IMG/VR virus record: IMGVR_UViG_2917855067_000004
Direction: 5' to 3' (one strand)
DNA length: 29,767 nucleotides
Source of the DNA: a virus
Taxonomy: Duplodnaviria > Heunggongvirae > Uroviricota > Caudoviricetes
The notes beneath the pieces were generated by a model. That model saw only the letters and a list, made by a program, of their open reading frames with translations. It did no database searches and had not been told where the DNA came from. Below are positions 5,243 through 29,113 of this stretch, piece after piece; the first letter of the stretch is position 1; each line of letters begins with the position of its first letter. The position numbers and the translations under genes are program-made.

Positions 5243-5305
5243 GATGTTTTTCTCTGCTCTGAAAGGGAATTAATAACCGGCCAGCAACACTGACCGGTCA
5301 GGGAT

Positions 5306-5824
5306 TTACAGCCCGATTGCGCGGCGGTGCTGTTCCAGACGGTCGACGCCGTTCACCTTCTCGACCATGTTGACGGTGTCGATTTCGATGACGTCGCTAC
5401 CATCAATTGTGAGGCGGTAATAGGTGCAAACGGTCGACAGTTTGGTCGAGGTGTTTTCACCCTGCTTATTCTCGCCGCCGTCGATTTCTTTATGACGGCC
5501 ACGCATGACCACCTCGACCGCGATGATTTCGCCAGTGTCGTCGCGTTGGTAAGAGCCAGCAAAACGCAGCGGCACGGCGTCAGCACCCGGCGCAGCGTAT
5601 TGCGCCCACAGCGTCACATCGGGCAGGCCACCGACAGACCATTCGACGGTTAACGCATCATCGTCGAGACCGAGGTCAATCGCCGCCGCGCCATTCATAC
5701 CACCGCCGCGATAGTTTTCGAGCTTGCGGGTCAGCTTCGGCAGCGTCACGGATTCAACAACGCCCATGTAGCTGAGGCCATCGTTGAACATGTTCAGATA
5801 TTTGAGTTTGCGGGGTAGTGCCAT
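5306..5824 (-). CDS. FII: Tail tube protein FII
   Basis: 172 aa; position between E and FI and size match P2 gpFII. Confidence 0.9.
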   Translation of the reverse strand: MALPRKLKYLNMFNDGLSYMGVVESVTLPKLTRKLENYRGGGMNGAAAIDLGLDDDALTVEWSVGGLPDVTLWAQYAAPGADAVPLRFAGSYQRDDTGEIIAVEVVMRGRHKEIDGGENKQGENTSTKLSTVCTYYRLTIDGSDVIEIDTVNMVEKVNGVDRLEQHRRAIGL

Positions 5825-5839
5825 GTTGTTTCAGGCTCC

Positions 5840-7018: not shown

Positions 7019-7120
7019 CCGGTTAACTCCGTGGTTAGTGGGCGAGTGTTATTGTCCTGGCTGGTCTAGTGAGGGGCTATTTGTCGGCGATGGCTAGGCG
7101 ATGGCACATAAACAAATCAT

Positions 7121-7143
7121 AAAAAAAGACGGGCATCAGCCCG
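7121..7143 (-). terminator. Intrinsic terminator after the tail-fibre genes (between G and FI)
   Basis: Minus-strand hairpin CGGGC-UGAU-GCCCG followed by U7. Confidence 0.45.
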
Positions 7144-7149
7144 CCTGCA

Positions 7150-7572
7150 TTACTCCGGTTTAACCGGCCACTCGATATCCGGTGCCGTGGAAGTGTCGAC
7201 TGCGTTCAGCGCCTGAATGTATTTCATCCACGCAATGAGGCTTGCTTTGTCAGCATCGCTGATGATGCCGAGCTGCAGCTCAGTCTGCCACAGGCTTATG
7301 TGCTCTTTTGCAGAAAACAATAATTCGCTGCGCTTTGCTTCGACCTGTGCAATCAGTTGCGCTTCTGTAAGCGGAGGAATATCTATCCAGCACGGATAAC
7401 CTTTTTTATCATTACTTCTAATTTTCCCATCAGGAGGCACCCCACTGAACACCTCAAAAACCCCCTCATCAACGTCAACGCCACTTTCCGGCCAGACATC
7501 TTCTTTCAAATAATCATCTTTCAATGTCCACGGATAAAAAGCATTTGTTGCTGCGCTATATCTGTATTTCAT
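7150..7572 (-). CDS. G: Tail fibre assembly protein G
   Basis: ORF downstream of H; start placed at ATG 7570-7572 (MKYRYSAATNAFYPW...), 2 nt after the H stop and with a GGGG Shine-Dalgarno; the track's longer 7629 start overlaps H. Confidence 0.7.
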   Translation of the reverse strand: MKYRYSAATNAFYPWTLKDDYLKEDVWPESGVDVDEGVFEVFSGVPPDGKIRSNDKKGYPCWIDIPPLTEAQLIAQVEAKRSELLFSAKEHISLWQTELQLGIISDADKASLIAWMKYIQALNAVDTSTAPDIEWPVKPE

Positions 7573-7574
7573 CG

Positions 7575-8537
7575 TCAATACCCCACTGCAATATACGAGA
7601 GGTTGAATCCTCCGGCACCACTCATCCACGCCTGAAACCCTGTTCGGGTTTGTGAGGCGGTAACCACACCATAAGACATAGCTGTACTCGGTACCGCGCC
7701 ACCGGTAGTAACATCTGACCAGGTTAGGTTAACCACAGCACCTGAAGCAAACGCTACCGGGAATGTTGCACTGGATAAATTCGACCCAATTCCAAATCCA
7801 AGTGAGCCTTTTTGAATAATTAACCCGCCAACAGTTTTAACCCAGTTAGCCCCATAACTCTGATAGCTCATGTCAGGAATTTGCCCCTGACCAACACCAA
7901 CATTTTTCGTTGAGGCCGTTCCTAAACCGAGGTTTTTAATGACTTCTGTCGTTAATCCTGCGTCGGCTATTTCTTTAAGTGCATTTGCGATGAGCAAATA
8001 CTGCTTATGCGGATTCGCGGTAGCAACGTGGTTTTTCATCAGGTCATCAGCATAGGCTTTCACCTCGATAATCTTGTCGTCAACATACTGACGCGTTGCC
8101 AGCACGACCGACGGGTCGATTTTCAGGGTGATGGCCGATGTGCTCGACACAATCAGAATCATGCGAATGGTCTGTGTGCGGCCGCTTCCCTCCTGCAATT
8201 GCGGCTTGTAGGTCTCCGGGCAGTTCGCCACGGCAATCAGAATGCCGTCGTCATCGTAGAGACCAATCTCGCGGATCCAGAAACCGCCCTCATTCTCGGG
8301 AATAATCTGTTCCGCGATAATCTGGTTGGTATTGGCCGGGTCAACGGTCAGCAGGTTCAGTGGCGCGATGCGCTTTTGGTTAATGAGCTTCGTCTGCGCC
8401 GGGTCAGGGGTCGGCAGCGTACCATTCGCATCACCGACGGCCATCTGCGTCAGGTTGAGTCTGGTACCGAGAGCCGCCGCGTTCGCCAGCCGCGCCGCGC
8501 CCTGATTGGTCAGAATGGCAAAATATTTTGCGGTCAT
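7575..8537 (-). CDS. H: Tail fibre protein H (short form, 320 aa)
   Basis: N-terminal ~150 aa (…MAVGDANGTLPTPDPAQTKLINQ…GGFWIREIGLYDDDGILIAVANCPETYKPQLQEGSGRTQTIRMILIVS…) resembles the conserved P2 gpH N-domain; the C-terminal part differs. Confidence 0.8.
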   Translation of the reverse strand: MTAKYFAILTNQGAARLANAAALGTRLNLTQMAVGDANGTLPTPDPAQTKLINQKRIAPLNLLTVDPANTNQIIAEQIIPENEGGFWIREIGLYDDDGILIAVANCPETYKPQLQEGSGRTQTIRMILIVSSTSAITLKIDPSVVLATRQYVDDKIIEVKAYADDLMKNHVATANPHKQYLLIANALKEIADAGLTTEVIKNLGLGTASTKNVGVGQGQIPDMSYQSYGANWVKTVGGLIIQKGSLGFGIGSNLSSATFPVAFASGAVVNLTWSDVTTGGAVPSTAMSYGVVTASQTRTGFQAWMSGAGGFNLSYIAVGY

Positions 8538-9142
8538 GCGTTCACTCTCAGGTTATCAATCAAATGGATGGCCGAGGCCGGGTAATATTCACCGCCGACG
8601 ACAATTTCCTCGGGGGTGTAGGGGTAAACGGTCAGCGCGTCGCCGTCGTAGCATCCCGCGCCGACGTACAGCTCGCCGGTTGCACTCAGACTGATAGCCA
8701 GCCCCGTCAGGTGACGACTTGCCGGTTTGGCGTCTTCAATCAGGCGCTCAAGTTCCTGATACATTTCGTCAGTGATGCCGCTGTCGAGCACACCGACAAC
8801 GAGACGGAATGTTCCAGGCTCCTCATTGAGTTGCCACCATTCGCGCACCTCAATCAGAAAGCCGAGCGGCTCGACCACCCGACGTAATGCGCTGATGGTG
8901 CCTTTGTGCTGATGGACGAAAAACGAGGATGCGCAGACGCTGCGCTTTGTCGCCTCCGGCCACTTTTCATCCCACCGGTCGACCGATAGCGCCCACGCCA
9001 GATACGGCAGCAGGTTTACCGGGCAGGTACGCCAGTTCCACAGGGTGCGCAACGGTACCGGTACGCGCTGAATCTCAGAGAGTGCAGTAGCGGCGGCAAC
9101 TTCCAGCGGCGACGAGCCAACGGGTAACAGCCGGTCACTCAT
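8534..9142 (-). CDS. I: Baseplate protein I
   Basis: 202 aa, position between J and H; stop overlaps the H start (ATGA). Confidence 0.85.
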   Translation of the reverse strand: MSDRLLPVGSSPLEVAAATALSEIQRVPVPLRTLWNWRTCPVNLLPYLAWALSVDRWDEKWPEATKRSVCASSFFVHQHKGTISALRRVVEPLGFLIEVREWWQLNEEPGTFRLVVGVLDSGITDEMYQELERLIEDAKPASRHLTGLAISLSATGELYVGAGCYDGDALTVYPYTPEEIVVGGEYYPASAIHLIDNLRVNA

Positions 9143-10043
9143 CCGAGCCCCCGATAGTTATCTGATACTCGGTGCAGTTCGACGCCTGCGACTTACTCAG
9201 CACAATATCGGCCTGCGGTGATGCCAGCTCGACACGCTGCACCCCCTCAACATGCAGCGCCGCGTAAATGGCCGACAGACGGATATCACGCCCGAGGCGG
9301 TGCTGTGCGCTGATGTAGCTCTGCAGCTTTTGCTCTGATGCCTGCCTGATGGGCTCAGACTCGGGGCCGGGGTATACGTAGAGCATCGCGTCAATCTGGT
9401 ACGGCACAATCTCGGCTGACTGGACAGTAACCCGGTCGGCCACCGGGCGCACATCTTCGGCATTCAGCGCTTTATCAACAATCGCCAGTAAATCAGGACT
9501 GGCGGTGCCGTCACCCTCGCGTGATAACACGGTAATTGTCACGCAGGCTGGCGAAGGGCTGGCGACCGACACGTCAGCGACCCGCCCGTCGGCGCTGCGG
9601 CCGTGATACTCGTATGCGCCTACCGGACCCGCTACACTTAACCCCTCAAACGCCTGTTGTGTGCGCAGACGCAGGTCGGTATCAGACTCCATAACGGCAG
9701 GCGTCGGCGGGATGGTGGTGTCATCCGCCGGGGTGATGGTCAGGCGTTCGGTATTGTTGTTCCCGGCCACGACGTCGAGGTCGTTATCGGCGGAATAGGC
9801 CAGCGTCACCGCCTGCGCAGCTTCGTTCACCCGCTGACGCCAGATAACTTCACGGTAGGCGTTTTCCTGCAGCAGTTTAACAATCGGCTCCGACTCAAGT
9901 GCCAGTGTCCGGGCAATGGCCTCCTGCTGGTCTTCGGGATAGAGCGAAATCAGCGTCGCAATGCGCTCCGCAAGGATGGTTTCATAGTCCAGTTCCTCAA
10001 CCACGTCGGGAACGGGTAACTGACTCAGGTCAACGGTTGCCAT
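9135..10043 (-). CDS. J: Baseplate protein J
   Basis: 302 aa, same size as P2 gpJ; position matches. Confidence 0.9.
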   Translation of the reverse strand: MATVDLSQLPVPDVVEELDYETILAERIATLISLYPEDQQEAIARTLALESEPIVKLLQENAYREVIWRQRVNEAAQAVTLAYSADNDLDVVAGNNNTERLTITPADDTTIPPTPAVMESDTDLRLRTQQAFEGLSVAGPVGAYEYHGRSADGRVADVSVASPSPACVTITVLSREGDGTASPDLLAIVDKALNAEDVRPVADRVTVQSAEIVPYQIDAMLYVYPGPESEPIRQASEQKLQSYISAQHRLGRDIRLSAIYAALHVEGVQRVELASPQADIVLSKSQASNCTEYQITIGGSDE

Positions 10044-10049
10044 AGTGAT

Positions 10050-10397
10050 TTAACTCAGTGAAACAGTGGTTGAAACTGACGCACCAGTATCGGTACGCAT
10101 CCCGGTAATATCGACATACATTTCGCCAGCGCCGCTGGTCTCAAAGCTGATAGCGGTAAGCCTTATGCGCGGCTCCCACTTCTGGATAGCCGAATAGCAC
10201 GCCACCATAATTTGCAGCCTGAGCGCCGGGTTTTGCGGCATATCAATCAGCGTCGACAGCAGCGAGCCATATTCACGACGCATCACCCGCGAACCGACCG
10301 GCGTCAGCAGTATGTCGCGCATGCTCTGGCTGATGTGCTCAGTGTCGCTGATGCCGAGGCCGGTATTTCGGTTCATACCCTGATAGCGCGCCGTCAT
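10050..10397 (-). CDS. W: Baseplate wedge protein W (gp25-like)
   Basis: 115 aa, same size and position as P2 gpW. Confidence 0.88.
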   Translation of the reverse strand: MTARYQGMNRNTGLGISDTEHISQSMRDILLTPVGSRVMRREYGSLLSTLIDMPQNPALRLQIMVACYSAIQKWEPRIRLTAISFETSGAGEMYVDITGMRTDTGASVSTTVSLS

Positions 10398-11029
10398 AAC
10401 GGAGCCCCCGTTTGCCCGCCGCTGTCGCCGGGGTGTTTATGGAGGTGGAGTACCTTGCCATTAGACGACAGTGACCCGCCGGAATGTTCGACATTGCCTT
10501 TCATCGTGCCGCCCTTTTGCACCTCAAGCGTCGCCGTCGTCAGCTTATTAGTGCAAATCACCTCAGGGGTGTCGAGGGTGATACTGGTCGAGGCTTTCAC
10601 CAGTACCAGCGGCACGGTTGCGGTGATGGACTTCGATGCCGTCACGTCGGCAGTTTTGATGCCGCTGACCGTCAGCGCGCCGGTCTCGGGTTCGTACTCA
10701 ATGACCGCACCATCAGGGAAAACCACATGCCACGCATCCGCCGAGGCAGACGGGGCGGGGTTATCGTCGGAGAAAATACCCGGCAGCACGAAAGCAGTAT
10801 CGAGCTCGCCACCGATTGCCAGCAGCAGAACCTGCTCACCGACCGAGGGAGCCCACCACGTCCGCGAACGACCGGCGCGGGTGGTCAGCCAGTTCAGCCA
10901 TGTAGTCTGGATCCCGCCGCTTTGTACGCGGCACAGCCCCTGCACGGTATCAACCTCAGTCACCACACCTGAGCGGATGAGGTTGCGAATCGCGCGCGCG
11001 AGCTCCTGTATCGTGGATAACGTATTCAT
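10394..11029 (-). CDS. V: Baseplate spike/assembly protein V
   Basis: 211 aa, same size and position as P2 gpV. Confidence 0.85.
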   Translation of the reverse strand: MNTLSTIQELARAIRNLIRSGVVTEVDTVQGLCRVQSGGIQTTWLNWLTTRAGRSRTWWAPSVGEQVLLLAIGGELDTAFVLPGIFSDDNPAPSASADAWHVVFPDGAVIEYEPETGALTVSGIKTADVTASKSITATVPLVLVKASTSITLDTPEVICTNKLTTATLEVQKGGTMKGNVEHSGGSLSSNGKVLHLHKHPGDSGGQTGAPL

Positions 11030-17031: not shown

Positions 17032-18801
17032 ATGACCATTTCCACCGATACAACCTTGTTGCATGACCCGCGACGGCAGGCATCGCTGCTTTACTGGCAG
17101 GGTTTTTCCGTGCCACAGATTGCCGAAATGCTGCAGGTCAAGCGCCCGACAGTGCAGAGCTGGAAGCAGCGCGACGGCTGGGACGGCATCGCACCGATTT
17201 CCCGCGTCGAAAGCAGCCTTGAGGCCAGGCTGATTCAGCTCATCGCCAAGCCGCAAAAGTCAGGCGGCGACTTCAAAGAGATTGACCTGCTCGGGCGGCA
17301 GATTGAGCGACTGGCGCGCGTTAACCGCTACAGCCAGACCGGCAACGAGGCCGACCTTAATCCCAATATCGCCAACCGCAACAAGGGCGAGCGCAAGAAG
17401 CCAAAAAAGAACTTTTTCAGCGACGAGGCTATCGAGAAACTGGAGGAACTATTTTTCGACCAGTCTTTCGAGTACCAGTTGCAGTGGTACCGTGCAGGAC
17501 TGGCGCACCGTATTCGCGATATTCTCAAATCCCGTCAGATTGGCGCGACGTTCTATTTCTCCCGCGAGGCGCTGCTGCGCGCGCTCAAGACCGGCCACAA
17601 CCAGATATTTCTGTCGGCCAGTAAAACGCAGGCTTACGTGTTCCGTGAATACATCATCCAGTTTGCGCGACTGGTCGACGTCGACCTGACCGGTGACCCG
17701 ATTGTCATCGGCAACAACGGTGCAAAGCTGATTTTTCTCGGTACCAATTCCAACACCGCGCAGAGCCATAATGGCGACCTGTATGTCGATGAAATATTCT
17801 GGATCCCGAATTTTCAGAAGCTGCGCAAAGTCGCGTCGGGCATGGCCTCGCAAAAGCACCTGCGCTCGACCTACTTTTCGACACCATCAACACTGGCGCA
17901 CGGCGCTTACCCCTTCTGGTCTGGCGAGCTGTTCAACAAGGGGCGCAGCCGTATTGCCGACCGCATCGAAATCGACATCAGCCACAGCGCGCTCGCCGGT
18001 GGTCAGCTCTGCGACGATGGCCAGTGGCGGCAGATTGTCACCATTGAGGATGCCCTTGCCGGTGGCTGCACCCTGTTCGACCTCGACCAGCTCAAACGCG
18101 AAAACAGTGATGAGGACTTTAAAAACCTGTTTATGTGCGAGTTTGTCGACGATAAAGCGTCGGTATTCCCGTTCGAGGAGCTGCAGCGCTGCATGGTCGA
18201 CGTGATGGAGGAATGGGAGGACTTTGCCCCGTTCGCCGACCATCCGTTCGGCTCGCGCCCGGTCTGGATTGGCTACGACCCGTCACACACCGGCGACAGT
18301 GCCGGGTGCGTCGTTCTCGCGCCGCCGGTGGTCTCGGGTGGCAAGTTCCGCATGCTGGAGCGCCACCAGTGGAAAGGCATGGACTTTGCCGCTCAGGCTG
18401 AGGGCATCCGTAAGCTGACCGAAAAATACAACGTCGAATACATCGGCATTGACGCAACCGGCCTCGGTCTCGGCGTGTTCCAGTTGGTGCGCTCGTTCTA
18501 CCCGGCGGCACGCGGCATCCGTTACACCCCCGAAATGAAAACCGCGATGGTGCTCAAGGCAAAAGACACCATTCGCCGTGGTTGTCTGGAGTACGACGCC
18601 GGGGCGACCGACGTCACGCAGTCGTTTATGTCCATCCGCAAAACCATGACCAGCAGCGGGCGCAGCGCCACCTACGAGGCCAGCCGCACCGAGGAAGCCA
18701 GTCACGCCGATATCGCATGGGCGACCATGCACGCCCTGTTAAACGAACCTCTTTCCGCCGGTAGCGGCATGCAGCCTAAATCTATTCTGGAGTTCAACTA
18801 A
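17032..18801 (+). CDS. P: Terminase ATPase (large) subunit P
   Basis: 589 aa; divergent from O as in P2; size matches gpP. Confidence 0.95.
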   Translation: MTISTDTTLLHDPRRQASLLYWQGFSVPQIAEMLQVKRPTVQSWKQRDGWDGIAPISRVESSLEARLIQLIAKPQKSGGDFKEIDLLGRQIERLARVNRYSQTGNEADLNPNIANRNKGERKKPKKNFFSDEAIEKLEELFFDQSFEYQLQWYRAGLAHRIRDILKSRQIGATFYFSREALLRALKTGHNQIFLSASKTQAYVFREYIIQFARLVDVDLTGDPIVIGNNGAKLIFLGTNSNTAQSHNGDLYVDEIFWIPNFQKLRKVASGMASQKHLRSTYFSTPSTLAHGAYPFWSGELFNKGRSRIADRIEIDISHSALAGGQLCDDGQWRQIVTIEDALAGGCTLFDLDQLKRENSDEDFKNLFMCEFVDDKASVFPFEELQRCMVDVMEEWEDFAPFADHPFGSRPVWIGYDPSHTGDSAGCVVLAPPVVSGGKFRMLERHQWKGMDFAAQAEGIRKLTEKYNVEYIGIDATGLGLGVFQLVRSFYPAARGIRYTPEMKTAMVLKAKDTIRRGCLEYDAGATDVTQSFMSIRKTMTSSGRSATYEASRTEEASHADIAWATMHALLNEPLSAGSGMQPKSILEFN

Positions 18802-18802
18802 A

Positions 18803-19849
18803 ATGGGTAAACAAAAATCCCGCAAAGTCGCTGCGCAGAAGGCCAGCAAGCCACAACAACTGACCGCCAGCGCACCGCCAAAAACAACTGCTTTTACCTT
18901 CGGCGAGCCGGTGCCGGTGCTCGATAAGCGCGATATTCTGGATTACGTCGAGTGCATCAGTAACGGCAAATGGTACGAGCCGCCGGTCAGCTTCTCCGGG
19001 CTGGCAAAGAGTCTGCGCTCTGCTGTACATCACAGCTCGCCGATTTACGTTAAGCGCAACGTGCTCGCGAGCACCTACATCCCGCACCCACTGCTGTCCC
19101 GTCAGGATTTCAGCCGCTTTGCGCTCGACTATCTCGTATTTGGCAACGCCTTTCTTGAGCAGCGCCACAGCGTTACCGGTCAGTTAATCAAACTGCTGGC
19201 CTCACCGGCCAAATACACCCGGCGCGGGATCGACGATTCGATTTTCTGGTTTGTGGAAAACTTCACTCTGCCGCATGAGTTCGCGCCTGATACCGTATTT
19301 CACCTGCTGGAGCCCGACATTAACCAGGAGATTTACGGTCTGCCCGAATATCTCAGCGCGCTTAATTCCGCCTGGCTGAATGAATCCGCGACGCTGTTCC
19401 GTCGCAAGTATTATCAGAACGGCGCGCACGCGGGTTACATCATGTATGTGACCGACCCGGCGCAGAGCGCGACCGACGTCGAATCGCTGCGCGAGGCGAT
19501 GCGCAACTCAAAAGGGCTCGGCAACTTTAAGAACCTGTTTTTCTACGCACCCGGCGGAAAACCGGACGGCATCAAAATCGTGCCGCTGAGCGAGGTCGCC
19601 ACAAAGGATGACTTTTTCAACATTAAAAAAGCCAGCGCTGCCGACCTGATGGACGCGCACCGCGTGCCGTTCCAGCTCATGGGCGGCAAGCCCGAGAATA
19701 TCGGTTCACTCGGTGACGTTGAGAAGGTGGCAAAGGTATTTGTGCGTAACGAGCTGTCACCCCTGCAGGACAGGTTCAGGGAGGTAAACGACTGGCTCGG
19801 CATGGAGGTCATCAGGTTCAAAGAGTACACCCTCGACAACCCGGAATAA
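18803..19849 (+). CDS. Q: Portal protein Q
   Basis: 348 aa immediately after P and adjacent to cos, as in P2. Confidence 0.9.
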   Translation: MGKQKSRKVAAQKASKPQQLTASAPPKTTAFTFGEPVPVLDKRDILDYVECISNGKWYEPPVSFSGLAKSLRSAVHHSSPIYVKRNVLASTYIPHPLLSRQDFSRFALDYLVFGNAFLEQRHSVTGQLIKLLASPAKYTRRGIDDSIFWFVENFTLPHEFAPDTVFHLLEPDINQEIYGLPEYLSALNSAWLNESATLFRRKYYQNGAHAGYIMYVTDPAQSATDVESLREAMRNSKGLGNFKNLFFYAPGGKPDGIKIVPLSEVATKDDFFNIKKASAADLMDAHRVPFQLMGGKPENIGSLGDVEKVAKVFVRNELSPLQDRFREVNDWLGMEVIRFKEYTLDNPE

Positions 19850-19857
19850 TCCCCCTC

Positions 19858-19881
19858 AAGCCGCCAGCATGGCGGCTTTTT
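19858..19881 (+). terminator. Intrinsic terminator after Q
   Basis: Hairpin AAGCCGCC-AGCAT-GGCGGCTT followed by TTTTT. Confidence 0.6.
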
Positions 19882-20025
19882 CATACCCCGCCACCATCAC
19901 GCCTCAGACGCGCCACGCGCGCACGACCACACAAGACCACCTACGAACCGACAGCATCCACTACAGCGCCATCACGACGCGCTCAGACGATAATTTTTAT
20001 TATTACGCACCACCGCTGGCGCGCA

Positions 20026-20044
20026 ATGCTTTCCCCGCCACGCC
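20026..20044. other. cos site (19-nt cohesive-end sequence of P2/186 type)
   Basis: The reverse complement reads GGCGTGGCGGGGAAAGCAT, which matches the 186 cohesive end as I remember it (P2 differs at 2 positions); it sits downstream of Q as expected. Confidence 0.75.
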
Positions 20045-20204
20045 TGCCCGCTTTATAGGGCGGTTTTAATGCAGTTGCATGATCACTCTGGATCCGCGCC
20101 AGCTCAGGCGGCGCACGGCCAGAACGGGCCCCCCCGGCGCATGCAAAACCATGCACCTGTTGCATGCACGGCTAAAAAACAGGGAAATCGCGTAAAAATG
20201 GCAT

Positions 20205-20247
20205 AAAAAAAAACCGGCATTCGCGGTGCCGGTTTCGGTCTGATTTT
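20205..20247. terminator. Bidirectional intrinsic terminator (strongest for the minus strand)
   Basis: A9 run, hairpin CCGGCA-TTCGCGG-TGCCGG, then a T-rich run; on the minus strand the hairpin is followed by U9. Confidence 0.6.
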
Positions 20248-20254
20248 GTCGCGA

Positions 20255-20356
20255 TTACTGGCCGCGCAATGCGCTGATAACACTATTGAGGCACATGCTG
20301 GCAACAATCAGCAGAAAAATTGTCGTCCACGGATTTTCATAAACGAGAGATAACAT
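20255..20356 (-). CDS. Hypothetical 33-aa single-TM peptide (MLSLVYENPWTTIFLLIVASMCLNSVISALRGQ)
   Basis: ATG at 20354-20356 with AAAGGA upstream; ~20-residue hydrophobic core; stop TAA at 20255-20257, directly followed by the strong terminator. Below the ORF-track length cutoff; not matched to a known family. Confidence 0.4.
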   Translation of the reverse strand: MLSLVYENPWTTIFLLIVASMCLNSVISALRGQ

Positions 20357-20372
20357 ATTGATATAGATCCTT

Positions 20373-20564
20373 TTATTTGTGCATTCTGATGTGGTTTAAC
20401 AGGTGTTTGATAATGGTCGTAAGCTCATCTTTACTGGCGTGCTCTACCATTTTTGCGGTGTAGCTTTCCACCTCGCGAGAGCTCAGGTCGTTATTTAAAG
20501 CCATTACAGTCAGCTTTTTTGCCCAATCGGCAAATGGGTCTATCGATGAAAGGGAATTATGCAT
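20373..20564 (-). CDS. Hypothetical 63-aa protein (MHNSLSSIDPFADWAKKLTVMALNNDLSSREVESYTAKMVEHASKDELTTIIKHLLNHIRMHK)
   Basis: Internal ATG at 20562-20564 with a GAGG Shine-Dalgarno 9 nt upstream; 16 nt upstream of the 33-aa peptide gene; AT-rich. The 91-aa track form starts at a weaker site. Confidence 0.5.
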   Translation of the reverse strand: MHNSLSSIDPFADWAKKLTVMALNNDLSSREVESYTAKMVEHASKDELTTIIKHLLNHIRMHK

Positions 20565-20995
20565 GTCCAAAAACCTCGAATTATTTAACCAGCAGACGGC
20601 GGAAATCTTTGCGGTGTTATGGGATAACTTCCCGGTGCCACAGGTCATTACCTACGAAAAATTTAAACGCCGCGCTACCTGATGACTACTTTGACCAACT
20701 TAACTCACCGGAAATGAAAGCACTGAATCAGTTGCGCAGTGTGGTTGAGGGTACATTCACTTTTCTCAGTGAAAACGGCTACATCCAGTACGGAACAGAC
20801 CACCAGACCTATTTTTATGATGTGCGCCTGACCGAGAAAGCACTCGCCGTGCTTAACAAAAAGCCCGAGGCGCTCGGCGGTAATGAAACAATGGGCGATA
20901 AGATTATCAGTGCAGTGAAAGACGGGACGCCGGGAGTGATTGCCGGTGCGGTGACAAACCTGCTTACCCTCGGTGTCAATCTGGTAACCAGTTAA
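20563..20995 (+). pseudogene. Frame-disrupted hypothetical gene: 39-aa frame-1 ORF (20563-20682) plus ~105-aa continuation in another frame to 20995
   Basis: ATG 20563 with AAGGGA 7 nt upstream gives MSKNLELFNQQTAEIFAVLWDNFPVPQVITYEKFKRRAT then tandem TGATGA; protein-like sequence continues one base out of frame (LPDDYFDQLNSPEMKALNQ...GVIAGAVTNLLTLGVNLVTS) to a TAA at 20993-20995. Confidence 0.4.
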
Positions 20996-20996
20996 C

Positions 20997-21052
20997 GCCT
21001 CGCGGGGCGTCGTTGTTCAACCCCGTCAGCACTGAAAGCGAGTTTCAGCGCT
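20997..21052. repeat. Structured repeat element R1 (GC stem-loop plus 10-bp hairpin with GCGAG loop)
   Basis: GCCTCGCGGGGCGTCGTTGTTCAACCCCGTC then AGCACTGAAA-GCGAG-TTTCAGCGCT; homologous to R2 about 405 bp away. Confidence 0.5.
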
Positions 21053-21062
21053 GAGACGTTTG

Positions 21063-21272
21063 CTATCGTCGACGTGGTGGAGGTGCGTATTTTGTCGGTC
21101 TGCTGATGCTATCCAGCTTGCCGCAATTATCCCTGACTATTTCGGCACACCCGACCAGCTCGGTGGGTGTCAAATTCTCATTGACCATTATCTGCTGCAG
21201 GCGATGAACGATAGCCATTAACTTAATATTTCTGGTCTGGTGCTGCGGTATTTCACCTGGTAGTCGATGCAT
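21063..21272 (-). CDS. Hypothetical 69-aa protein
   Basis: ATG at 21270-21272 with a GAGGG Shine-Dalgarno 7 nt upstream; lies between R2 and R1; no family recognised. Confidence 0.45.
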   Translation of the reverse strand: MHRLPGEIPQHQTRNIKLMAIVHRLQQIMVNENLTPTELVGCAEIVRDNCGKLDSISRPTKYAPPPRRR

Positions 21273-21401
21273 ATTATCACCCTCAATGAATTTTAATCAG
21301 TGCCGTCAAAACGCCACTATAAAACCCTCTCAGGTCATGCCTCATTCATCACTGGCGTGTCATCAATAGCACATTGAGAAATTTTGAAAGGCAGGACTAA
21401 A

Positions 21402-21455
21402 GCCTCGTGGGCTCGTTACTCAACCCCGTCGACGCAAAAAGCTAGTTTTTGCGCC
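21402..21455. repeat. Structured repeat element R2 (homologue of R1; hairpin with GCTAG loop)
   Basis: GCCTCGTGGGCTCGTTACTCAACCCCGTC then GACGCAAAAA-GCTAG-TTTTTGCGCC; stem differs from R1 by base changes that preserve pairing. Confidence 0.5.
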
Positions 21456-21471
21456 AACACGGTTATCATGT

Positions 21472-21702
21472 TTAACGCCAGCTATCGTCTTCCCAAATCT
21501 CTTGTAATATGCCGCTTAATGTTTCTTTGTCTGCTTCTTTATCGAATCCGATAACCTCTACACCAGTCATTGACCCTTTCTTGACGTTAACTTTTATTGC
21601 AGGAAAAACGCATTGTACTCGATGTGTTATTTCATTCTGAAAAGCATCAATGATCTGTTGCCCTAATTTTTGTTCTTTATCCAACGTGATATTGATTCTC
21701 AT
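21472..21702 (-). CDS. DinI-family protein (likely the C-terminal part of a Tum-like SOS-inducible antirepressor)
   Basis: 76 aa MRINITLDKEQKLGQQIIDAFQNEITHRVQCVFPAIKVNVKKGSMTGVEVIGFDKEADKETLSGILQEIWEDDSWR resembles E. coli DinI (MRIEVTIAK...ILQETWE) from memory. Confidence 0.8.
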   Translation of the reverse strand: MRINITLDKEQKLGQQIIDAFQNEITHRVQCVFPAIKVNVKKGSMTGVEVIGFDKEADKETLSGILQEIWEDDSWR

Positions 21703-21705
21703 AAT

Positions 21706-21888
21706 CTAATCAGCCTTATAAAAATTATCATCTTCGGTTTCGTTATTCTCGCTGTTTGCTAGGTCTGCAATGAGAGTGAGCGCGAGCTTTAAGTCTGATG
21801 GCTTGCAGTTTGCAATCAGAGATACCTCGGCAATAAATTGCACACAAGCCCACTTTTGCTGCGTTCGGCTGAAATGTTCGTCAACCAT
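21706..21888 (-). CDS. Hypothetical 60-aa protein, first gene of the LexA-box operon (possible Tum N-terminal part)
   Basis: ATG at 21886-21888 with AGGAGG 6 nt upstream; ends at a TAG that is in frame with, and one codon before, the DinI-like ATG. Confidence 0.55.
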   Translation of the reverse strand: MVDEHFSRTQQKWACVQFIAEVSLIANCKPSDLKLALTLIADLANSENNETEDDNFYKAD

Positions 21889-21907
21889 GGAATCCCTCCT
21901 ACAGGGT

Positions 21908-21927
21908 TACTGTATGTTTATACAGTA
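21908..21927. promoter_or_regulatory. LexA operator (SOS box) upstream of the orf60/DinI-like operon
   Basis: TACTGTATGTTTATACAGTA: CTGT-N8-ACAG with palindromic flanks, about 20 nt upstream of the orf60 ribosome-binding site. Confidence 0.8.
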
Positions 21928-22001
21928 GCACGTATTGGTAAAAGATGGGAAGAAAAAAAACGAATAGGGCGATTGTCGTATGTACATGATATGGATATAA
22001 A

Positions 22002-24296
22002 TTACTCTGATATTGGTTTTGATGCTTCAGCTATCGCAGCAACACGATTAAGGATTTTTCTGGCTTTAGCCTCATGCGATGGTGCTGTGGAAAATATTTC
22101 TCCTTTGGCCGTTCCGCGTAGCCATTTACCATCAAAACAACTTTTACCACCGGCCATCAGGTGCAGAGCTTCGCCCCGGCTGATATTAATGCCGGTTGTC
22201 AAATGTATCTCTTCGATAGTTTTCGCTATAGCTGCGTTTTGCTCATCCGTTCCGTGGACGAATTTTCGCCGTGCTGCTGGCTTTTGCTTCCTGAGTCGGT
22301 TGGTCAACTCTCGTCTTTCACGCCGACTCAGTGGTTTTGTTAAATCCAGTATCGGTGGATCGCTTTCGCTTCCCGTACAGTTATTGACAGAACTCCGAGG
22401 GACGGCTTTGCCGTCCTGAAGGTCAACGGCCAAATCAACAGCATGCTTCGGAACAATCTTCCACTGAGTGAGTCGGGTTAATATCGGGCTCCCTGCACCT
22501 ATGGAGGAATCGTAGACCCCCTTAATACATACCGTTTCCTCACCGTACTGATTAAGCTCGGTACGCGGTTCATACAGTGTGCGCACCTGTAAATCATCGC
22601 GACGGACAAACGGTCCACCCTGCGCATTAACATACCCAGCCCAGTCACCAGCGTCGGCGGCATCATGGACGGCGGCAAACTCAACGCTCAGTCCGTGCGC
22701 GGTTTCGGTATCAGCGAGGCGACGCAACTCACGGTAAACCGTCACCGGCGCACCACCGATAAACTGAAACTGACGGATGTGCCAGCGCGAAGCCCATGCT
22801 GAAACGGCGGGGGCTGTCTCTTTCAGCAGTTCACCACTTTCATCATCGGTTTCACCATCGAGAGCATAACCGTCGATATTTTTTGAGATGTATTTAGCAA
22901 CATAGCCGGTTGCGCTGCCTTTCTCCGGGTCAATGGACTCGGCGTGGAAACGTGCTTTTTTGGATTTATCGCTTTTCAGTTCGTGGCGGTCTTCTTTCCA
23001 TGCGTATTTACGGACGATGGAGCGAACATATTCAACATCTTCCGGCAGCATGAACATCAGCATGTGCCAGTGTGGAGTGCCGTCGTGATGGGGCTCGGCG
23101 ACACGAATACCGAAAATACGGACATCTTCCCGATGTAGTTTGGCACGGATGCGCGCCCAGATACCGGTTAGATAGTTTTGCGTGTCAGCCGGGCTGGCAC
23201 CGCTCCATTTGCTGTTACGGTAACCGGCTTTAGTTGTGGCGTGATATTTTGACGGCGCGGTTAGAGTGTAAAACTCACCGACATAACCGAGCTCATTACA
23301 GATGTTTTCAAACCCACGAATGCGGGTCATGAGCTCACAGCGGCGAATCGCAGGGTTAGCAACTGAGCCATCATATTTTTCAATTAGGCTGATACGGTTG
23401 CCGTCTTCGTCTTCGAGATCCAGACCTTTGAGAAATTCACGAGTTCGGCGCTTTTGTTCACGCCAGTCAGTCACGCAGTTTTTACTCGCATAGGTGTTTT
23501 TTTTCTTGCTGACGTTGCCGACTGCAATTTGCAGGTGTTCGCGCCATGTAGCTGCAACCCGGCGCAAACGACCACGCCACCACCCATCGTTAAACATCTT
23601 GGCGATAGCCGGTGCGATTTCATCCGCTCCGACATATTTTTTTGCAACCCGATCCCAATGGGGTGGGATAACGTTGAACTGGAGGGAAATAAAGCCAGCA
23701 CGATTATACCAAGTGTACAGCGTTTTAAGCTCGCCGAATCCGTGGTCATTAATGCTGGCAAGTTCACCACGAATGAAATTAGCAATATCGGCGGCCAACA
23801 GGTCAACATCAGCGCGCGACATATCCGGGAGGCGGTTATATCGGGCGACCATATTAACCATGCGTGACGCCAGATATTGCATAAGCTGGGTATCAAAATG
23901 ACTTCCAAAAACAGAGGTTGATACCTTGCTGTTGATACCCGCGCATTCGTATTTTTTTGCGACCAATTCAAGACGCGGCAATGCCTTTTTGCAGAAGCTG
24001 ATCAAAAAGGCATTGGCTCGTTGAATGCCCTGATTTTGCTCCAGCACTGCCGCAGTGCGATAAACATCTAACCGCACGCAGTCGGGCTGGAGAGAAAGCA
24101 CCTTTTTCGCATGCAGCAAAGCCGCGAACATACGGTCGCGGCGATGCTGTTGCTCGTAAGTAAGGTATGGGCTGGCTATAGCCGACCGTGGAGCATTCCA
24201 CGGATAAGCAAAAGTAATATCTAATGCCCCTCCGTCATGTATCATCTGTCGACTTTCTTTTTGATTCCATAACATTGGTCGTGTAGCCTCCCACAA
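22002..24296 (-). CDS. A: Replication initiation protein A (rolling-circle nickase)
   Basis: 764 aa; size and position match P2 gpA; contains a His-hydrophobic-His motif (PHWHMLMF) and a YVAKY motif consistent with rolling-circle Rep proteins. Confidence 0.93.
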   Translation of the reverse strand: MWEATRPMLWNQKESRQMIHDGGALDITFAYPWNAPRSAIASPYLTYEQQHRRDRMFAALLHAKKVLSLQPDCVRLDVYRTAAVLEQNQGIQRANAFLISFCKKALPRLELVAKKYECAGINSKVSTSVFGSHFDTQLMQYLASRMVNMVARYNRLPDMSRADVDLLAADIANFIRGELASINDHGFGELKTLYTWYNRAGFISLQFNVIPPHWDRVAKKYVGADEIAPAIAKMFNDGWWRGRLRRVAATWREHLQIAVGNVSKKKNTYASKNCVTDWREQKRRTREFLKGLDLEDEDGNRISLIEKYDGSVANPAIRRCELMTRIRGFENICNELGYVGEFYTLTAPSKYHATTKAGYRNSKWSGASPADTQNYLTGIWARIRAKLHREDVRIFGIRVAEPHHDGTPHWHMLMFMLPEDVEYVRSIVRKYAWKEDRHELKSDKSKKARFHAESIDPEKGSATGYVAKYISKNIDGYALDGETDDESGELLKETAPAVSAWASRWHIRQFQFIGGAPVTVYRELRRLADTETAHGLSVEFAAVHDAADAGDWAGYVNAQGGPFVRRDDLQVRTLYEPRTELNQYGEETVCIKGVYDSSIGAGSPILTRLTQWKIVPKHAVDLAVDLQDGKAVPRSSVNNCTGSESDPPILDLTKPLSRRERRELTNRLRKQKPAARRKFVHGTDEQNAAIAKTIEEIHLTTGINISRGEALHLMAGGKSCFDGKWLRGTAKGEIFSTAPSHEAKARKILNRVAAIAEASKPISE

Positions 24297-26844: not shown

Positions 26845-27690
26845 ATGTCTAAAAATGATGTCAATGCGTCTGCCGCTTTAGAGCGAGTCCTTTCTGCATA
26901 CGGTTTTAAGCAGCAAAAAGAACTAGCTGAAAGGCTTGGTATTCATGCGAACAACGTAAGTAGTTGGCTTGCAAGAAACGTGATCCCAAGCAACGTTTTC
27001 GTTGAGTGCGCTCTTGATACAGGGGCTGACCTGCGATGGCTTGTTAATGGTGAACTTGCAAATACAAAATATGACGAGAGGCAAGTAAATCTCAAAGGTA
27101 AGCAACTCTATGATGAAATCATGGCTAATGGAGGAAGGGCGGTTCTGCGTCGTATTCTCGATGCGTATGGTTTTACTATGCAAAAAGAGTTGGGAGATTT
27201 ATTAGGCATATCCTCTGGTACTATAAGCACTTGGGTCAGACGCGATTTTTTCCCTGGTGATGTGGTTGTAACCTGCGCCCTCGATACAGGCGTATCGTTA
27301 GAATGGTTATCTACGGGAAAAGGCCAGATGCGTAACAGCAAGGATGGTGAGTCAGCTAATTCTTTAACGATTAGAAAATGCCGCCTTGAGGCAGGTGAAC
27401 TCAAGGATATCGGGCGTTGGACTCCTGATGTCTCTATGGTTCCGGCAAACACTGATGATTTAGTCTTTATTGATGGCGTGAGTGCATCTTGGCTTGTTGA
27501 TTGTTCTAACTCAAAGATAGGAAATGGTCGTTGGCTTATTGGTATTGATGGTGCGCTCGATATTTTTGACGTAATCAGATTGCCCGGAGGAAAGGTCAGG
27601 CTATCAAATAAGTCTGTTGAGTTTGAATGTAATCTTTCTGATATCACACCATCAGGTGCCGTTTTCTTTACTTTGGAAAAGCATGTTTAA
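26845..27690 (+). CDS. cI: CI immunity repressor (186 type) with tandemly duplicated N-terminal DNA-binding domain
   Basis: Start placed at ATG 26845 (MSKNDV...); two homologous ~65-aa segments (...LSAYGFKQQKELAERLGI...CALDTGADLRWLVNGE and ...LDAYGFTMQKELGDLLGI...CALDTGVSLEWLSTGKG) followed by a ~125-aa C-terminal domain. Confidence 0.75.
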   Translation: MSKNDVNASAALERVLSAYGFKQQKELAERLGIHANNVSSWLARNVIPSNVFVECALDTGADLRWLVNGELANTKYDERQVNLKGKQLYDEIMANGGRAVLRRILDAYGFTMQKELGDLLGISSGTISTWVRRDFFPGDVVVTCALDTGVSLEWLSTGKGQMRNSKDGESANSLTIRKCRLEAGELKDIGRWTPDVSMVPANTDDLVFIDGVSASWLVDCSNSKIGNGRWLIGIDGALDIFDVIRLPGGKVRLSNKSVEFECNLSDITPSGAVFFTLEKHV

Positions 27691-27699
27691 GGGGCAGTA

Positions 27700-27963
27700 A
27701 TGAAAAAGTTTTTATTTGGAATGGTCTGTATTGCACTTTCTTCCTCAACATTTGCTGCTGAAAAGTTCAAAGAGATTGATAGTAAATCTTTTGGTGGTAA
27801 ATGGCCGCTAACCTTTGAGCATGCAAAGGTATCTTGTGTAAATCGTCACTACGTTTTTGTTTATGATATTGATACTGATGAACGATATCCCCTAAGCGGT
27901 ATGGCTAAAAAACGCCGTCAAATCAGGAAAAATGGAAGGGCGAGATTTAAAAGAAGTGCTTAA
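27700..27963 (+). CDS. Small secreted protein (signal peptide; tentative YebY/DUF2511-like), between cI and int
   Basis: AAGGGG Shine-Dalgarno 5 nt before the ATG; MKKFLFGMVCIALSSSTFA signal peptide; mature part ...GGKWPLTFEHAKVSCVNRHYVFVYDIDTDERYPLSGMA... and a basic tail; AT-rich. Confidence 0.6.
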   Translation: MKKFLFGMVCIALSSSTFAAEKFKEIDSKSFGGKWPLTFEHAKVSCVNRHYVFVYDIDTDERYPLSGMAKKRRQIRKNGRARFKRSA

Positions 27964-28063
27964 AAAAAGACCCTGACGATCCATTAGAAAGCGCTGATAT
28001 AGGCCCGGTTTTCAGTGAAGCTATAGCGCTGTGTGAATAATATTTTTTTGTCTCGGTGTAGCT

Positions 28064-29113
28064 ATGACAGTAAGTAAGCAAAAAAATGGTAAATGGTTAT
28101 GCGAGCTTTATCCAAATGGCCGGGAAGGACGGCGTATACGTCGTCAATTTAATACCAAAGGTGAGGCCGAGGCATTCGAATCATTTACCAAAAGCGAGAG
28201 TGAATATAAGCCGTGGCTCGGCAAGAAAGAAGACCGCCGACGCTTAAGTGAGATTATCCAGCTTTGGAACAATTTGCACGGTCAGGCGTTAGTCGCCAGT
28301 AAGTCGCGGTTGGCAAAGCTTCAAATCGTGTGTAATGGTTTAGGTGACCCTATCGCATCCCGCCTTACTGCTAAAGATTGGGCTCACTATCGTGATAAAC
28401 GGCTTCGTGGTGAAATAGATAATGGATATCACAAAGACCCTGCAAAATGGATCGCCAAACCGATAACCGTCAACCGTGAGCAGCAGTATTTAGAAGCTGT
28501 TTTCAATGAGCTAAAGCGGCTAGGGGAATGGACCCAACCTAACCCGCTTGATGGTATTCGTATATTTAAAGAAGCTGAGAAGGAAATGTCATGGCTGACG
28601 CTTGAACAAATCCCGCAGCTTTTATCGGCATGTCATCAGTATGGACATGAAGACCTTACGCAGATTGTCGAGGTTTGTTTGGCGACTGGTGCCCGATGGG
28701 GTGAGGCCGAACGAATAACCCGTCCTCAACTTTCGCCCTACAAACTTACTTTCACAAAAACTAAAGGCAAAAAAAATCGCACAGTCCCGATCCCAAAATG
28801 GCTTTACGAAAAGTTATCTACGCGTCAGGGGCGAATGTTTAAGCCTTGCTATCAGGAGTTCAAAAAAATGCTTTTGCTTACTGATATCGAGCTGACTGAA
28901 GGGCAGAAAACGCACGTTTTACGTCACACCTTTGGTGCGCATTTTATGATGAATGGCGGCAATATCCTTGTACTCCAGAAGATACTCGGTCACGCAAATA
29001 TTCGTGAAACAATGAAGTATGCGCACTTTGCTCCTGACCATCTTGAACAAGCTGTCACCTTAAATCCGTTGTCACTGTGTATTGGCGACAACGTGGCGGC
29101 AGAGGTTGCGTAA
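28064..29113 (+). CDS. int: Tyrosine integrase (P2 family)
   Basis: 349 aa; C-terminal catalytic region ...HVLRHTFGAHFMMNGGNILVLQKILGHANIRETMKYAHF (R/H-x-x-R...Y); adjacent to attR. Confidence 0.93.
   Translation: MTVSKQKNGKWLCELYPNGREGRRIRRQFNTKGEAEAFESFTKSESEYKPWLGKKEDRRRLSEIIQLWNNLHGQALVASKSRLAKLQIVCNGLGDPIASRLTAKDWAHYRDKRLRGEIDNGYHKDPAKWIAKPITVNREQQYLEAVFNELKRLGEWTQPNPLDGIRIFKEAEKEMSWLTLEQIPQLLSACHQYGHEDLTQIVEVCLATGARWGEAERITRPQLSPYKLTFTKTKGKKNRTVPIPKWLYEKLSTRQGRMFKPCYQEFKKMLLLTDIELTEGQKTHVLRHTFGAHFMMNGGNILVLQKILGHANIRETMKYAHFAPDHLEQAVTLNPLSLCIGDNVAAEVA

What the first reader, a model, noticed from the sequence alone, without database searches (positions are those of the whole stretch)
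20563..20995. Frame-disrupted gene whose start codon overlaps the divergent 63-aa gene at a CATG palindrome
A 39-aa ORF with a good Shine-Dalgarno ends in tandem stops (TGATGA), and protein-like sequence continues one base out of frame for ~105 more codons. The C-terminal segment GVIAGAVTNLLTLGVNL is hydrophobic and glycine-zipper-like. This is either a recent inactivating indel, a sequencing error, or a non-canonical recoding site. The plus ATG (20563-20565) and minus ATG (20562-20564) overlap, so each gene's ribosome-binding site lies inside the other's coding region.
Basis: seen in the sequence. Interest (0 to 1): 0.55.

Follow-up and report, generated by a model that had tools for sequence, protein, structure and literature searches.

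The report
Sequencing-error frameshift in a prophage gene
The broken reading frame is real in this sequence file but is almost certainly a one-base Ion Torrent sequencing or assembly error in an otherwise intact, uncharacterised 143-aa prophage gene, so it is neither a recoding signal nor a pseudogene of interest.

Summary
The features described are all present. A 39-codon ORF (20563-20682) is followed by about 109 codons of the same protein in the +1 frame (20666-20995), and its ATG overlaps the ATG of a divergent 63-aa gene at CATG 20562-20565. The cause is one extra A (AAA at 20665-20667). All 19 other fetched copies have AA and encode a single-frame protein of about 143 aa (phrog_2266).

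The window is identical to contig PDIE01000013.1 of Escherichia sp. E3356. That draft genome was made from 40x single-end Ion Torrent reads. An independent re-assembly of run SRR6148328 matches the window over 5.3 kb with 0 substitutions and only 5 one-base length differences, and it carries the intact gene. It also shares the window's private C deletion at 21054, so it is the same lineage. The window is the outlier at three of the five sites and the re-assembly at the other two. That pattern is what homopolymer-call noise looks like.

No +1 slippery site, stimulator or long homopolymer is present. TGATGA is simply conserved CCT-GAT-GAC read out of frame.

The conserved gene pair is real. It is an uncharacterised accessory pair in the P2/186 cos-proximal hotspot: a winged-helix protein with a hydrophobic C-terminal helix, and a 63-aa partner.

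The parts
20563..20682 (+). 5' segment of the 143-aa gene as it reads in this file: codons 1-34 are authentic, followed by 5 out-of-frame codons (KRRAT) and TGA
   Evidence: ORF list. tblastn of the Midge homologue places residues 1-34 in frame 1 at 20563-20664. DNA alignment.
20665..20667 (+). Site of the frame break: AAA here, AA in all other copies (one extra A)
   Evidence: AAA is found only in the PDIE01000013.1 contig. AA is found in 19 other fetched loci, including the re-assembly L023, which has no substitution differences from the window.
20666..20995 (+). 3' segment of the same gene in the +1 frame: codons 35-143 plus TAA. It carries the rest of the winged-helix domain, the linker and the conserved hydrophobic C-terminal helix.
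   Evidence: tblastn places residues 32-143 in frame 2. Third-position bias is 9/6/42. Structure model.
20373..20564 (-). Intact divergent 63-aa gene (phrog_2454), the conserved partner of the 143-aa gene
   Evidence: phrog_2454 at E = 9e-38. Annotated in relatives. Coding-type substitution pattern 19/11/45. Present with the same start overlap down to 39% identity.
20562..20565 (.). CATG palindrome holding both start codons, with a 2-nt overlap
   Evidence: Read directly. CATG is present at the start of the 143-aa gene in 19 of 20 distinct loci, and a 60-64-aa minus ORF starts there in 15 of them.
20550..20555 (+). Shine-Dalgarno-like AAGGGA for the 143-aa gene, lying inside the 63-aa gene's coding sequence
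   Evidence: Read directly. The same position is annotated as a ribosome-binding site in phage Midge.
20574..20577 (-). Shine-Dalgarno-like GAGG for the 63-aa gene, lying inside the 143-aa gene's coding sequence
   Evidence: Read directly. The equivalent site is annotated as a ribosome-binding site in Midge.
20210..20236 (-). Intrinsic-terminator-like hairpin followed by a T-run. It ends the minus-strand unit (63-aa gene plus a possible 33-aa ORF). Its T-run is the A-run 20205-20213 on the plus strand.
   Evidence: Terminator scan: 10-pair stem followed by TTTTTTTTT.
20026..20044 (-). Context: exact match to the 186-type cos core 19-mer, which places the gene pair about 330-950 nt from cos
   Evidence: Exact match, 0 expected by chance. 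The 19-mer itself is recalled from memory of the 186/P2 literature. The ends of Midge's linear genome map to this place.

Best explanation
The frame break is a single-base over-call (AA read as AAA at 20665-20667) introduced by Ion Torrent sequencing or consensus building in the draft assembly of Escherichia sp. E3356. In the cell the gene is most likely an intact, single-frame 143-aa gene.

That gene belongs to a conserved divergent pair carried as accessory cargo in the cos-proximal variable region of P2/186-like prophages. One member is a 143-aa protein made of a winged-helix domain, a flexible linker and a conserved hydrophobic C-terminal helix. The other is a 63-aa helical-looking partner whose start codon overlaps at CATG.

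**Shown:** the insertion, its uniqueness to one contig, the sequencing platform, the disagreement between two assemblies, and the fold.

**Inferred:** that the reads actually support AA, and any function of the pair. My working guess for function is a DNA-binding protein tethered to the membrane, or oligomerised, through its C-terminal helix. The 5' ends of the two transcripts necessarily overlap, so expression of the two genes is probably coupled or antagonistic.
For: 1. The window is 100% identical over 6,192 nt to GCA_004745295.1 contig PDIE01000013.1. PDIE00000000 is strain E3356, sequenced on Ion Torrent with single-end 35-400-nt reads at 40x, assembled with MIRA and SPAdes with manual gap closure (PMC6639607).

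2. The Logan re-assembly of run SRR6148328 (L023) aligns to window 18939-24274 with 0 mismatches and 5 one-base gaps. It encodes the intact 143-aa gene. It shares the window's otherwise private C deletion at 21054, so it is the same strain or lineage.

3. Against the relatives, the window is the lone outlier at 20205 (A9 vs A8), 20665 (AAA vs AA) and 21009 (extra G right after GGGGC). L023 is the lone outlier at 21409 (GG vs GGG) and 23609 (C vs CC, which splits its gene A). Five length-call disagreements with no substitutions is the signature of homopolymer or phasing error, not of divergence.

4. All 19 other fetched loci have AA. The repaired protein is 100% identical to the protein of Escherichia sp. 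E1V33 and is present in the protein collection under several accessions. None of the tested candidate products of the broken allele is in the collection, apart from a 93-aa RefSeq remnant.

5. All other roughly 40 genes of the prophage are single-frame, so this is not a decaying element.
Against: - I could not inspect reads, so which length call the reads favour is inferred.
- The link between SRR6148328 and E3356 is not documented in the paper, which gives SRX3260348 only. It is inferred from 0 substitutions and a shared private deletion.
- The re-assembly is itself wrong at two sites, so it is not an arbiter on its own.
- A 2-to-3-base run is a less error-prone context than long homopolymers.
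- Three window-specific errors cluster within about 800 bp, while the other roughly 27 kb of coding sequence shows no frameshift. That needs a local cause, such as low coverage, a contig joint or a manually closed gap, which I did not demonstrate.
Confidence: 0.85

Rival explanations
1. A genuine, very recent 1-nt insertion in strain E3356 has inactivated the 143-aa gene, producing a true pseudogene in a non-essential prophage accessory gene.
For: The gene is accessory, and sporadic frame-broken copies with breaks at other positions exist in other assemblies (P0051, P0055, P0064, P0069, P0072). Pseudogenes of unknown-function genes are reported as common at P2 and P4 hotspot loci (PMC13586616). 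The C deletion at 21054 is shared by both assemblies and is probably real, so this lineage does carry real indels nearby.
Against: A re-assembly with no substitution differences carries the intact allele. For the insertion to be real, that assembly would have to err at exactly this base and in the restoring direction, and do the same at 20205 and 21009. All five differences between the two assemblies are 1-nt length calls. The platform is Ion Torrent.
Confidence: 0.12
2. A programmed +1 ribosomal frameshift, or transcriptional slippage, fuses the two frames into a full-length protein.
For: Only the geometry. The +1 frame is open across the whole 39-codon ORF, so a +1 shift at ACC-U-GA (20677-20682) would give a 143-aa protein differing in only 5 residues (KRRAT in place of NAALP).
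Against: The break is not conserved. It occurs in 1 contig against 19 other fetched loci, and the wider family is single-frame. There is no prfB-like slippery codon: the codon before the stop is ACC, and its tRNA re-pairs poorly on CCU. There is no Shine-Dalgarno-like stimulator upstream in CGC CGC GCT ACC, and no rare codon. The longest homopolymers nearby are A5, T3 and A3, far below what transcriptional slippage needs, as I recall it. There is no Rfam hit in the window.
Confidence: 0.01
3. Two independent genes: a 39-aa peptide, and a 93-aa protein initiated at ATG 20714, as RefSeq annotates it (WP_240781956.1).
For: RefSeq lists a 93-aa product with exactly this sequence for E3356.
Against: No homologue has this arrangement. 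ATG 20714 is the internal Met51 of the single-frame protein. The sequence upstream of it (caccggaaATG) has no good Shine-Dalgarno. The split cuts the winged-helix domain after its first helix and strand. The 93-aa call is a by-product of annotating the broken sequence.
Confidence: 0.02

Closest known systems
Homopolymer or phasing indel errors in Ion Torrent draft assemblies, which produce artefactual frameshifted genes
   Same: A single-base length miscall in or next to short runs (AA to AAA, A8 to A9, an extra G after GGGGC). Two assemblies differ only by such calls.
   Different: The errors cluster within about 800 bp, while the rest of the prophage is clean. One of the four indels that separate the window from its relatives (21054) is shared by both assemblies and is probably real.
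phrog_2266 / phrog_2454 gene pair, for example phage Midge CPTMidge_045/046, Salmonella phage FSL SP-004 SP004_00195/00200 and Klebsiella phage ST147-VIM1phi7.1 QBQ71542/QBQ71543
   Same: Same proteins at 95-97% identity for the 143-aa member, same divergent arrangement with a 2-nt start overlap, and same position next to cos.
   Different: Only the extra A. No function is known for any member. Midge's annotators record only a weak HHpred resemblance to T7 5.5/5.7, which I could not reproduce by sequence or fold search.
prfB-type programmed +1 frameshift (CUU UGA C with an upstream Shine-Dalgarno)
   Same: A 0-frame stop with the continuing frame at +1.
   Different: No slippery codon, no stimulator and no conservation.
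Accessory or defence cargo of the P2 gpQ-cos-gpA hotspot (old, tin and others; Rousset et al. 2022)
   Same: It lies between portal/cos and replication gene A. In relatives it neighbours varying defence-like cargo: a reverse transcriptase, Fic, a YobI-ATPase, AAA_15 or AAA_13.
   Different: It is retained while the neighbouring cargo changes. It matches no PADLOC model. No anti-phage activity has been shown.
Winged-helix DNA-binding proteins (MarR-like fold). By architecture only, membrane-tethered wHTH regulators such as ToxR and CadC (from memory).
   Different: No sequence match to MarR or any Pfam family. There is no periplasmic domain, because the helix is at the extreme C-terminus. Membrane insertion is not established (KD 1.57, borderline).

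Membership tests
phrog_2266 (uncharacterised 143-144-aa phage protein) | Full-length match to the family profile | tested here: met
It is 100% identical to the E1V33 protein.
phrog_2266 (uncharacterised 143-144-aa phage protein) | Encoded in one continuous reading frame | tested here: not met
   As written in the window it is split by +1 at 20665. It is continuous in all 19 other loci, and in the re-assembly that has no substitution differences from the window.
Programmed +1 ribosomal frameshift site | The frame break is conserved among homologues | tested here: not met
   AAA occurs in 1 contig only and AA in 19 loci. Family members are single-frame proteins of about 125-160 aa.
Programmed +1 ribosomal frameshift site | A slippery P-site codon that re-pairs in +1, next to a stop or hungry codon, usually with an upstream Shine-Dalgarno-like stimulator | tested here: not met
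   The sequence CGC CGC GCT ACC TGA TGA has no CUU/CCC/UUU-type slippery codon before the stop and no AGGGGG-like element upstream. The criteria are from established knowledge of prfB.
Transcriptional slippage site | A long A or T homopolymer, about 8 or more (threshold from memory) | tested here: not met
   The runs near the site are A5, T3 and A3.
Winged-helix (MarR-like fold) DNA-binding proteins | Winged-helix fold | tested here: met
Winged-helix (MarR-like fold) DNA-binding proteins | Sequence membership of a curated wHTH family, and actual DNA binding | tested here: not met
   No Pfam or NCBIfam hit above threshold. The best PDB profile hit has E = 0.71. DNA binding cannot be tested here.
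P2-like cos-proximal hotspot cargo (Rousset et al. 2022) | Located between portal gpQ/cos and replication gene gpA of a P2-like prophage | tested here: met
   Portal 18803-19849, cos 20026-20044, gene A 22002-24296. Definition from PMC9122126.
P2-like cos-proximal hotspot cargo (Rousset et al. 2022) | Recognisable as, or shown to be, an anti-phage system | tested here: not met
   No PADLOC model matches the 143-aa protein. The 63-aa protein has only a sub-threshold PtuB hit at E = 0.0056. Activity cannot be tested here.

The most novel reading that the evidence does not exclude
The frameshift aside, the conserved pair would be a new kind of small accessory module of the P2/186 cos-proximal defence hotspot. 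The pair consists of the 63-aa gene and the 143-aa winged-helix protein with its conserved hydrophobic C-terminal helix, with their start codons interlocked at CATG.

One possibility is a membrane-tethered DNA-binding exclusion or immunity factor. Another is a regulator of the neighbouring cargo, with the two genes controlled by mutually overlapping 5' transcripts.

The 143-aa protein belongs to an unannotated, apparently phage-associated superfamily of at least 759 sequence clusters. Phage context was checked for only a few members.
Probability: 0.15. Interest if true: 0.45.

Novelty: not a real feature. Interest (0 to 1): 0.1.

Why it matters
The main value is as a cautionary result. The apparent frameshift or recoding candidate, and the 93-aa RefSeq protein WP_240781956.1 derived from it, are by-products of a homopolymer miscall in an Ion Torrent draft. 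They should not be counted as a pseudogene, a recoding site or a new small gene.

A secondary point is that the underlying gene pair is a genuine, widespread and wholly uncharacterised occupant of the P2/186 defence hotspot. It has an unusual, conserved start-codon interlock and could be worth a simple phage-challenge experiment. Nothing found here shows a function for it.

Tried and rejected
- **Exact 36-mer search:** a 36-mer spanning the inserted A gave 0 hits in viral contigs.
- **Exact-product look-ups:** six candidate products of the broken allele were tested. Only the 93-aa RefSeq remnant exists, and it is not in the contig index.
- **A misreading I made and then rejected:** I first took adjacent accessions (RZM90282/RZM90283) to mean that a second E3356 assembly had an intact gene. 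The accession lists fit better if the E3356 63-aa entry is TGB94541.1, which has no adjacent 143-aa entry. Contig PDIE01000013.1 has no gene call at that place.
- The afdb50 fold library was unavailable.
- **No informative family or fold match:** Pfam, NCBIfam, PADLOC, the PDB sequence profile and the BFVD fold search gave nothing beyond a generic winged helix. Midge's T7 5.5/5.7 resemblance was not reproduced.
- **Promoter scan:** no sigma-70-like site near the interlocked starts. My reading by eye found only weak candidates, so promoters remain unassigned.
- **Embedded regulatory elements:** I looked for extra synonymous-site constraint in the first 34 codons of the 143-aa gene. There was no clear excess: 11 of 34 third positions vary, against 42 of 109 downstream.
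- **Rfam:** no family in the window.
- **Downstream hairpin:** the folding energy is not distinguishable from shuffles, z = -0.4 and -1.4.
- **33-aa ORF against hyp47:** codon-position counts could not decide between the 33-aa minus ORF and Midge's hyp47 on the opposite strand.

Full report
**What is in the sequence.** The described features are all present.
- ATG 20563-20565 is preceded by AAGGGA (20550-20555).
- It opens a 39-codon ORF that stops at TGA 20680-20682, followed directly by a second TGA.
- The +1 frame stays open to TAA 20993-20995.
- The minus-strand ATG at 20564-20562 starts a 63-aa ORF (20373-20564), so the two start codons share two bases inside CATG 20562-20565.

**Where it is.** The window is a 186/P2-like (Peduoviridae) prophage.
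- ogr is at 361-576, and tail and head genes run on the minus strand to 16866.
- Terminase is at 17032-18801 and portal at 18803-19849.
- An exact 186-type cos 19-mer is at 20026-20044.
- Replication gene A is at 22002-24296, and CI and integrase lie at 26845-29113.

The finding therefore lies in the cos-proximal region between gpQ and gpA. Rousset et al. describe this region as a hotspot of variable, often anti-phage, cargo (PMC9122126).

**What the gene is.** In E. coli D3, phage Midge, Salmonella phage FSL SP-004 and Klebsiella phage ST147-VIM1phi7.1 the homologous gene is one uninterrupted 432-nt ORF of 143 aa. It has the same 2-nt start overlap with a 192-195-nt divergent gene.

Aligning the DNA shows one difference that matters. 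The window reads TTTAAAC (AAA at 20665-20667) where every relative reads TTTAAC.
- Removing one A gives a protein that matches phrog_2266 over its full length (E = 5.6e-61).
- That protein is 100% identical to the protein of Escherichia sp. E1V33.
- TGATGA is just the conserved codons CCT-GAT-GAC (P-D-D) read out of frame.
- Both halves show third-position-biased substitution, each counted in its own frame: 2/0/11 and 9/6/42.

So this is a real gene split by a +1 insertion.

**Is the break biological?**
- A wide protein search found 72 homologues. Most of them are 142-149 aa long and span the whole query in one frame. A few sporadic broken copies have their breaks at other positions.
- A profile search found 759 cluster representatives, nearly all full-length proteins of 125-160 aa.
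- Across all loci fetched, AAA occurs only in one contig. The AA allele occurs in 19 loci.
- A +1 shift would be needed to restore the frame. The sequence between the insertion and the stop (AAA CGC CGC GCT ACC TGA) has no slippery codon, no rare codon and no Shine-Dalgarno-like stimulator.
- The nearby homopolymers (A5, T3, A3) are too short for transcriptional slippage, by the length threshold as I recall it.
- Rfam finds nothing in the window.

Recoding is therefore rejected.

**Source of the sequence.**
- The exact 63-aa partner protein led to GCA_004745295.1 contig PDIE01000013.1, which is 100% identical to the window over 6,192 nt and has no gene call at the broken locus.
- RefSeq lists only a 93-aa remnant starting at ATG 20714, WP_240781956.1 from Escherichia sp. 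E3356.
- The genome announcement for PDIE00000000 (E3356) states that the strains were sequenced on Ion Torrent with single-end 35-400-nt reads. E3356 had 40x coverage. Assembly used MIRA and SPAdes with reference-guided ordering and manual gap closure (PMC6639607).

**The decisive comparison.** Looking up neighbouring intact window proteins retrieved a Logan re-assembly of run SRR6148328 (L023).
- It aligns to window 18939-24274 with 0 mismatches and 5 one-base gaps.
- The next closest relative has 47 mismatches over a similar span.

| Position | Window | L023 | Other relatives | Outlier |
|---|---|---|---|---|
| 20205 | A9 | A8 | A8, A7 or A6 | window |
| 20665 | AAA | AA | AA | window |
| 21009 | extra G after GGGGC | absent | absent | window |
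| 21409 | GGG | GG | GGG or GGT | L023 |
| 23609 | CC | C | CC | L023 (splits its gene A into 267 + 490 aa) |

The window and L023 alone share a private C deletion at 21054, which marks them as the same lineage.

Five length-call disagreements and no substitutions, with errors on both sides, is the pattern expected from Ion Torrent homopolymer and phasing noise resolved differently by two assemblers. The argument holds even if L023 were a sister isolate rather than the same read set. Real divergence that consisted of five indels and no substitutions is very unlikely.

**Remaining uncertainty.**
- I could not see reads.
- The link between the SRR run and the strain is inferred.
- The three window-specific errors cluster within about 800 bp, while about 40 other genes are clean. 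That needs a local cause I did not demonstrate.

I put the artefact at 0.85, a real recent insertion at 0.12, and recoding or two separate genes at about 0.01-0.02 each.

**The protein.**
- An AlphaFold model of a 94%-identical family member (mean pLDDT 82) shows a winged-helix domain over residues 1-96 with pLDDT 88-94.
- A disordered linker at 100-106 follows, then helices at 110-120 and 123-142.
- There is no Pfam, NCBIfam, PADLOC, PDB-sequence or BFVD match of note.
- The C-terminal GVIAGAVTNLLTLGVNL segment is the most conserved part of the family. It is borderline for a membrane helix, with a KD mean of 1.57.
- The insertion at codon 35 would cut the winged-helix domain after its first helix and strand.

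**The pair and its context.**
- The CATG interlock with a 60-64-aa partner is conserved in the Escherichia, Salmonella, Klebsiella phage and Serratia copies, down to 39% and 65% identity for the two proteins.
- The partner is missing in Kluyvera and in a remote member, and its frame is broken in Klebsiella aerogenes. So the 143-aa gene can stand alone.
- The pair stays next to cos while the neighbouring cargo changes: a reverse transcriptase with XRE, Fic, a YobI-ATPase, or AAA_15 with a partner.
- In K. aerogenes the gene sits beside an AAA_13 protein in three different island contexts.
- Remote members are also found in phage settings.

Because the start codons interlock, each promoter and ribosome-binding site must lie inside the other gene and the 5' transcript ends must overlap. 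I found no convincing promoters. Function remains unknown. The membrane-tethered DNA-binding idea is inference only.

**Verdict.** The frame break is most probably not real. The recoding reading is rejected. The conserved overlapping gene pair is real but ordinary in the sense that it is already catalogued, without a function, as phrog_2266 and phrog_2454. Interest is low.

Noticed in passing
window 20205-20213: The A-run is A9 here. It is A8 in the re-assembly L023 and in E1V33, and A7 or A6 in other relatives. The extra A splits the plus-strand ORF that Midge annotates as hyp47 (90 aa). This run is also the T-tail of the minus-strand terminator at 20210-20236. It is probably a second miscall of the same kind.
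   Followed up: yes
window 21009: An extra G directly after GGGGC. It is found only in this contig and is absent from L023 and from the other 22 fetched loci that span the site. It looks like a phasing or carry-forward type error. The position is non-coding, just downstream of the 143-aa gene's stop.
   Followed up: yes
window 21024-21056 (C missing after 21054): A hairpin downstream of the 143-aa gene lies in a segment that is conserved as far as phage 186. In the relatives I aligned, the two arms change together (GTCAGC/GCTGAC against GCCGGC/ACCGGC). The window and L023 share a private C deletion that shortens the stem. The folding energy is not better than shuffled sequence, so its role (terminator or something else) is open.
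   Followed up: partly
window 20255-20356 (-): A 33-aa strongly hydrophobic ORF (KD 2.17) lies 16 nt downstream of the 63-aa gene, with an AGGA upstream. It is conserved at 73-97% aa identity in relatives and is annotated in the Klebsiella phage. Midge instead annotates a 90-aa ORF on the opposite strand. Codon-position counts (10/1/8 against 8/1/10) cannot decide which is real.
   Followed up: partly
L023 (Logan SRR6148328), equivalent to window 23609 and 21409: The re-assembly has its own one-base deletions. One of them splits replication gene A into 267 + 490 aa, while the window's gene A is intact. This is the mirror image of the artefact in the window.
   Followed up: yes
L019/L005 (E1V33) 3757-4761; L020 and L022 4360-4673: There is a second small variable spot between the portal gene and cos. 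E1V33 carries an extra 334-aa ORF there, and other relatives carry a 103-aa DUF2188 gene. The window has nothing there.
   Followed up: no
L015, L016, L017 (Klebsiella aerogenes) 3226-10434: The same block appears in three different surroundings: a CbtA/CbeA-RadC-antirestriction island, next to smpB, and next to a P4-type primase. The block is IS3, a remnant of the 63-aa gene, the 143-aa homologue, a 742-aa AAA_13 protein and three further genes.
   Followed up: no
L036 844-1269: A remote superfamily member (141 aa) is inserted between GpU and tail protein X of a P2-like tail module in a metagenome contig. So the family also occurs as a moron outside the cos hotspot.
   Followed up: no
window 20714-20995: RefSeq protein WP_240781956.1 (93 aa, Escherichia sp. 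E3356) is the annotation by-product of the broken frame. It starts at the internal Met51 of the true protein.
   Followed up: yes
window 7150-8537 (-): The tail-fibre gene H and its assembly gene G are the most divergent structural genes compared with Midge, at 76% and 35% aa identity. This is the usual host-range mosaic of P2-like phages.
   Followed up: no
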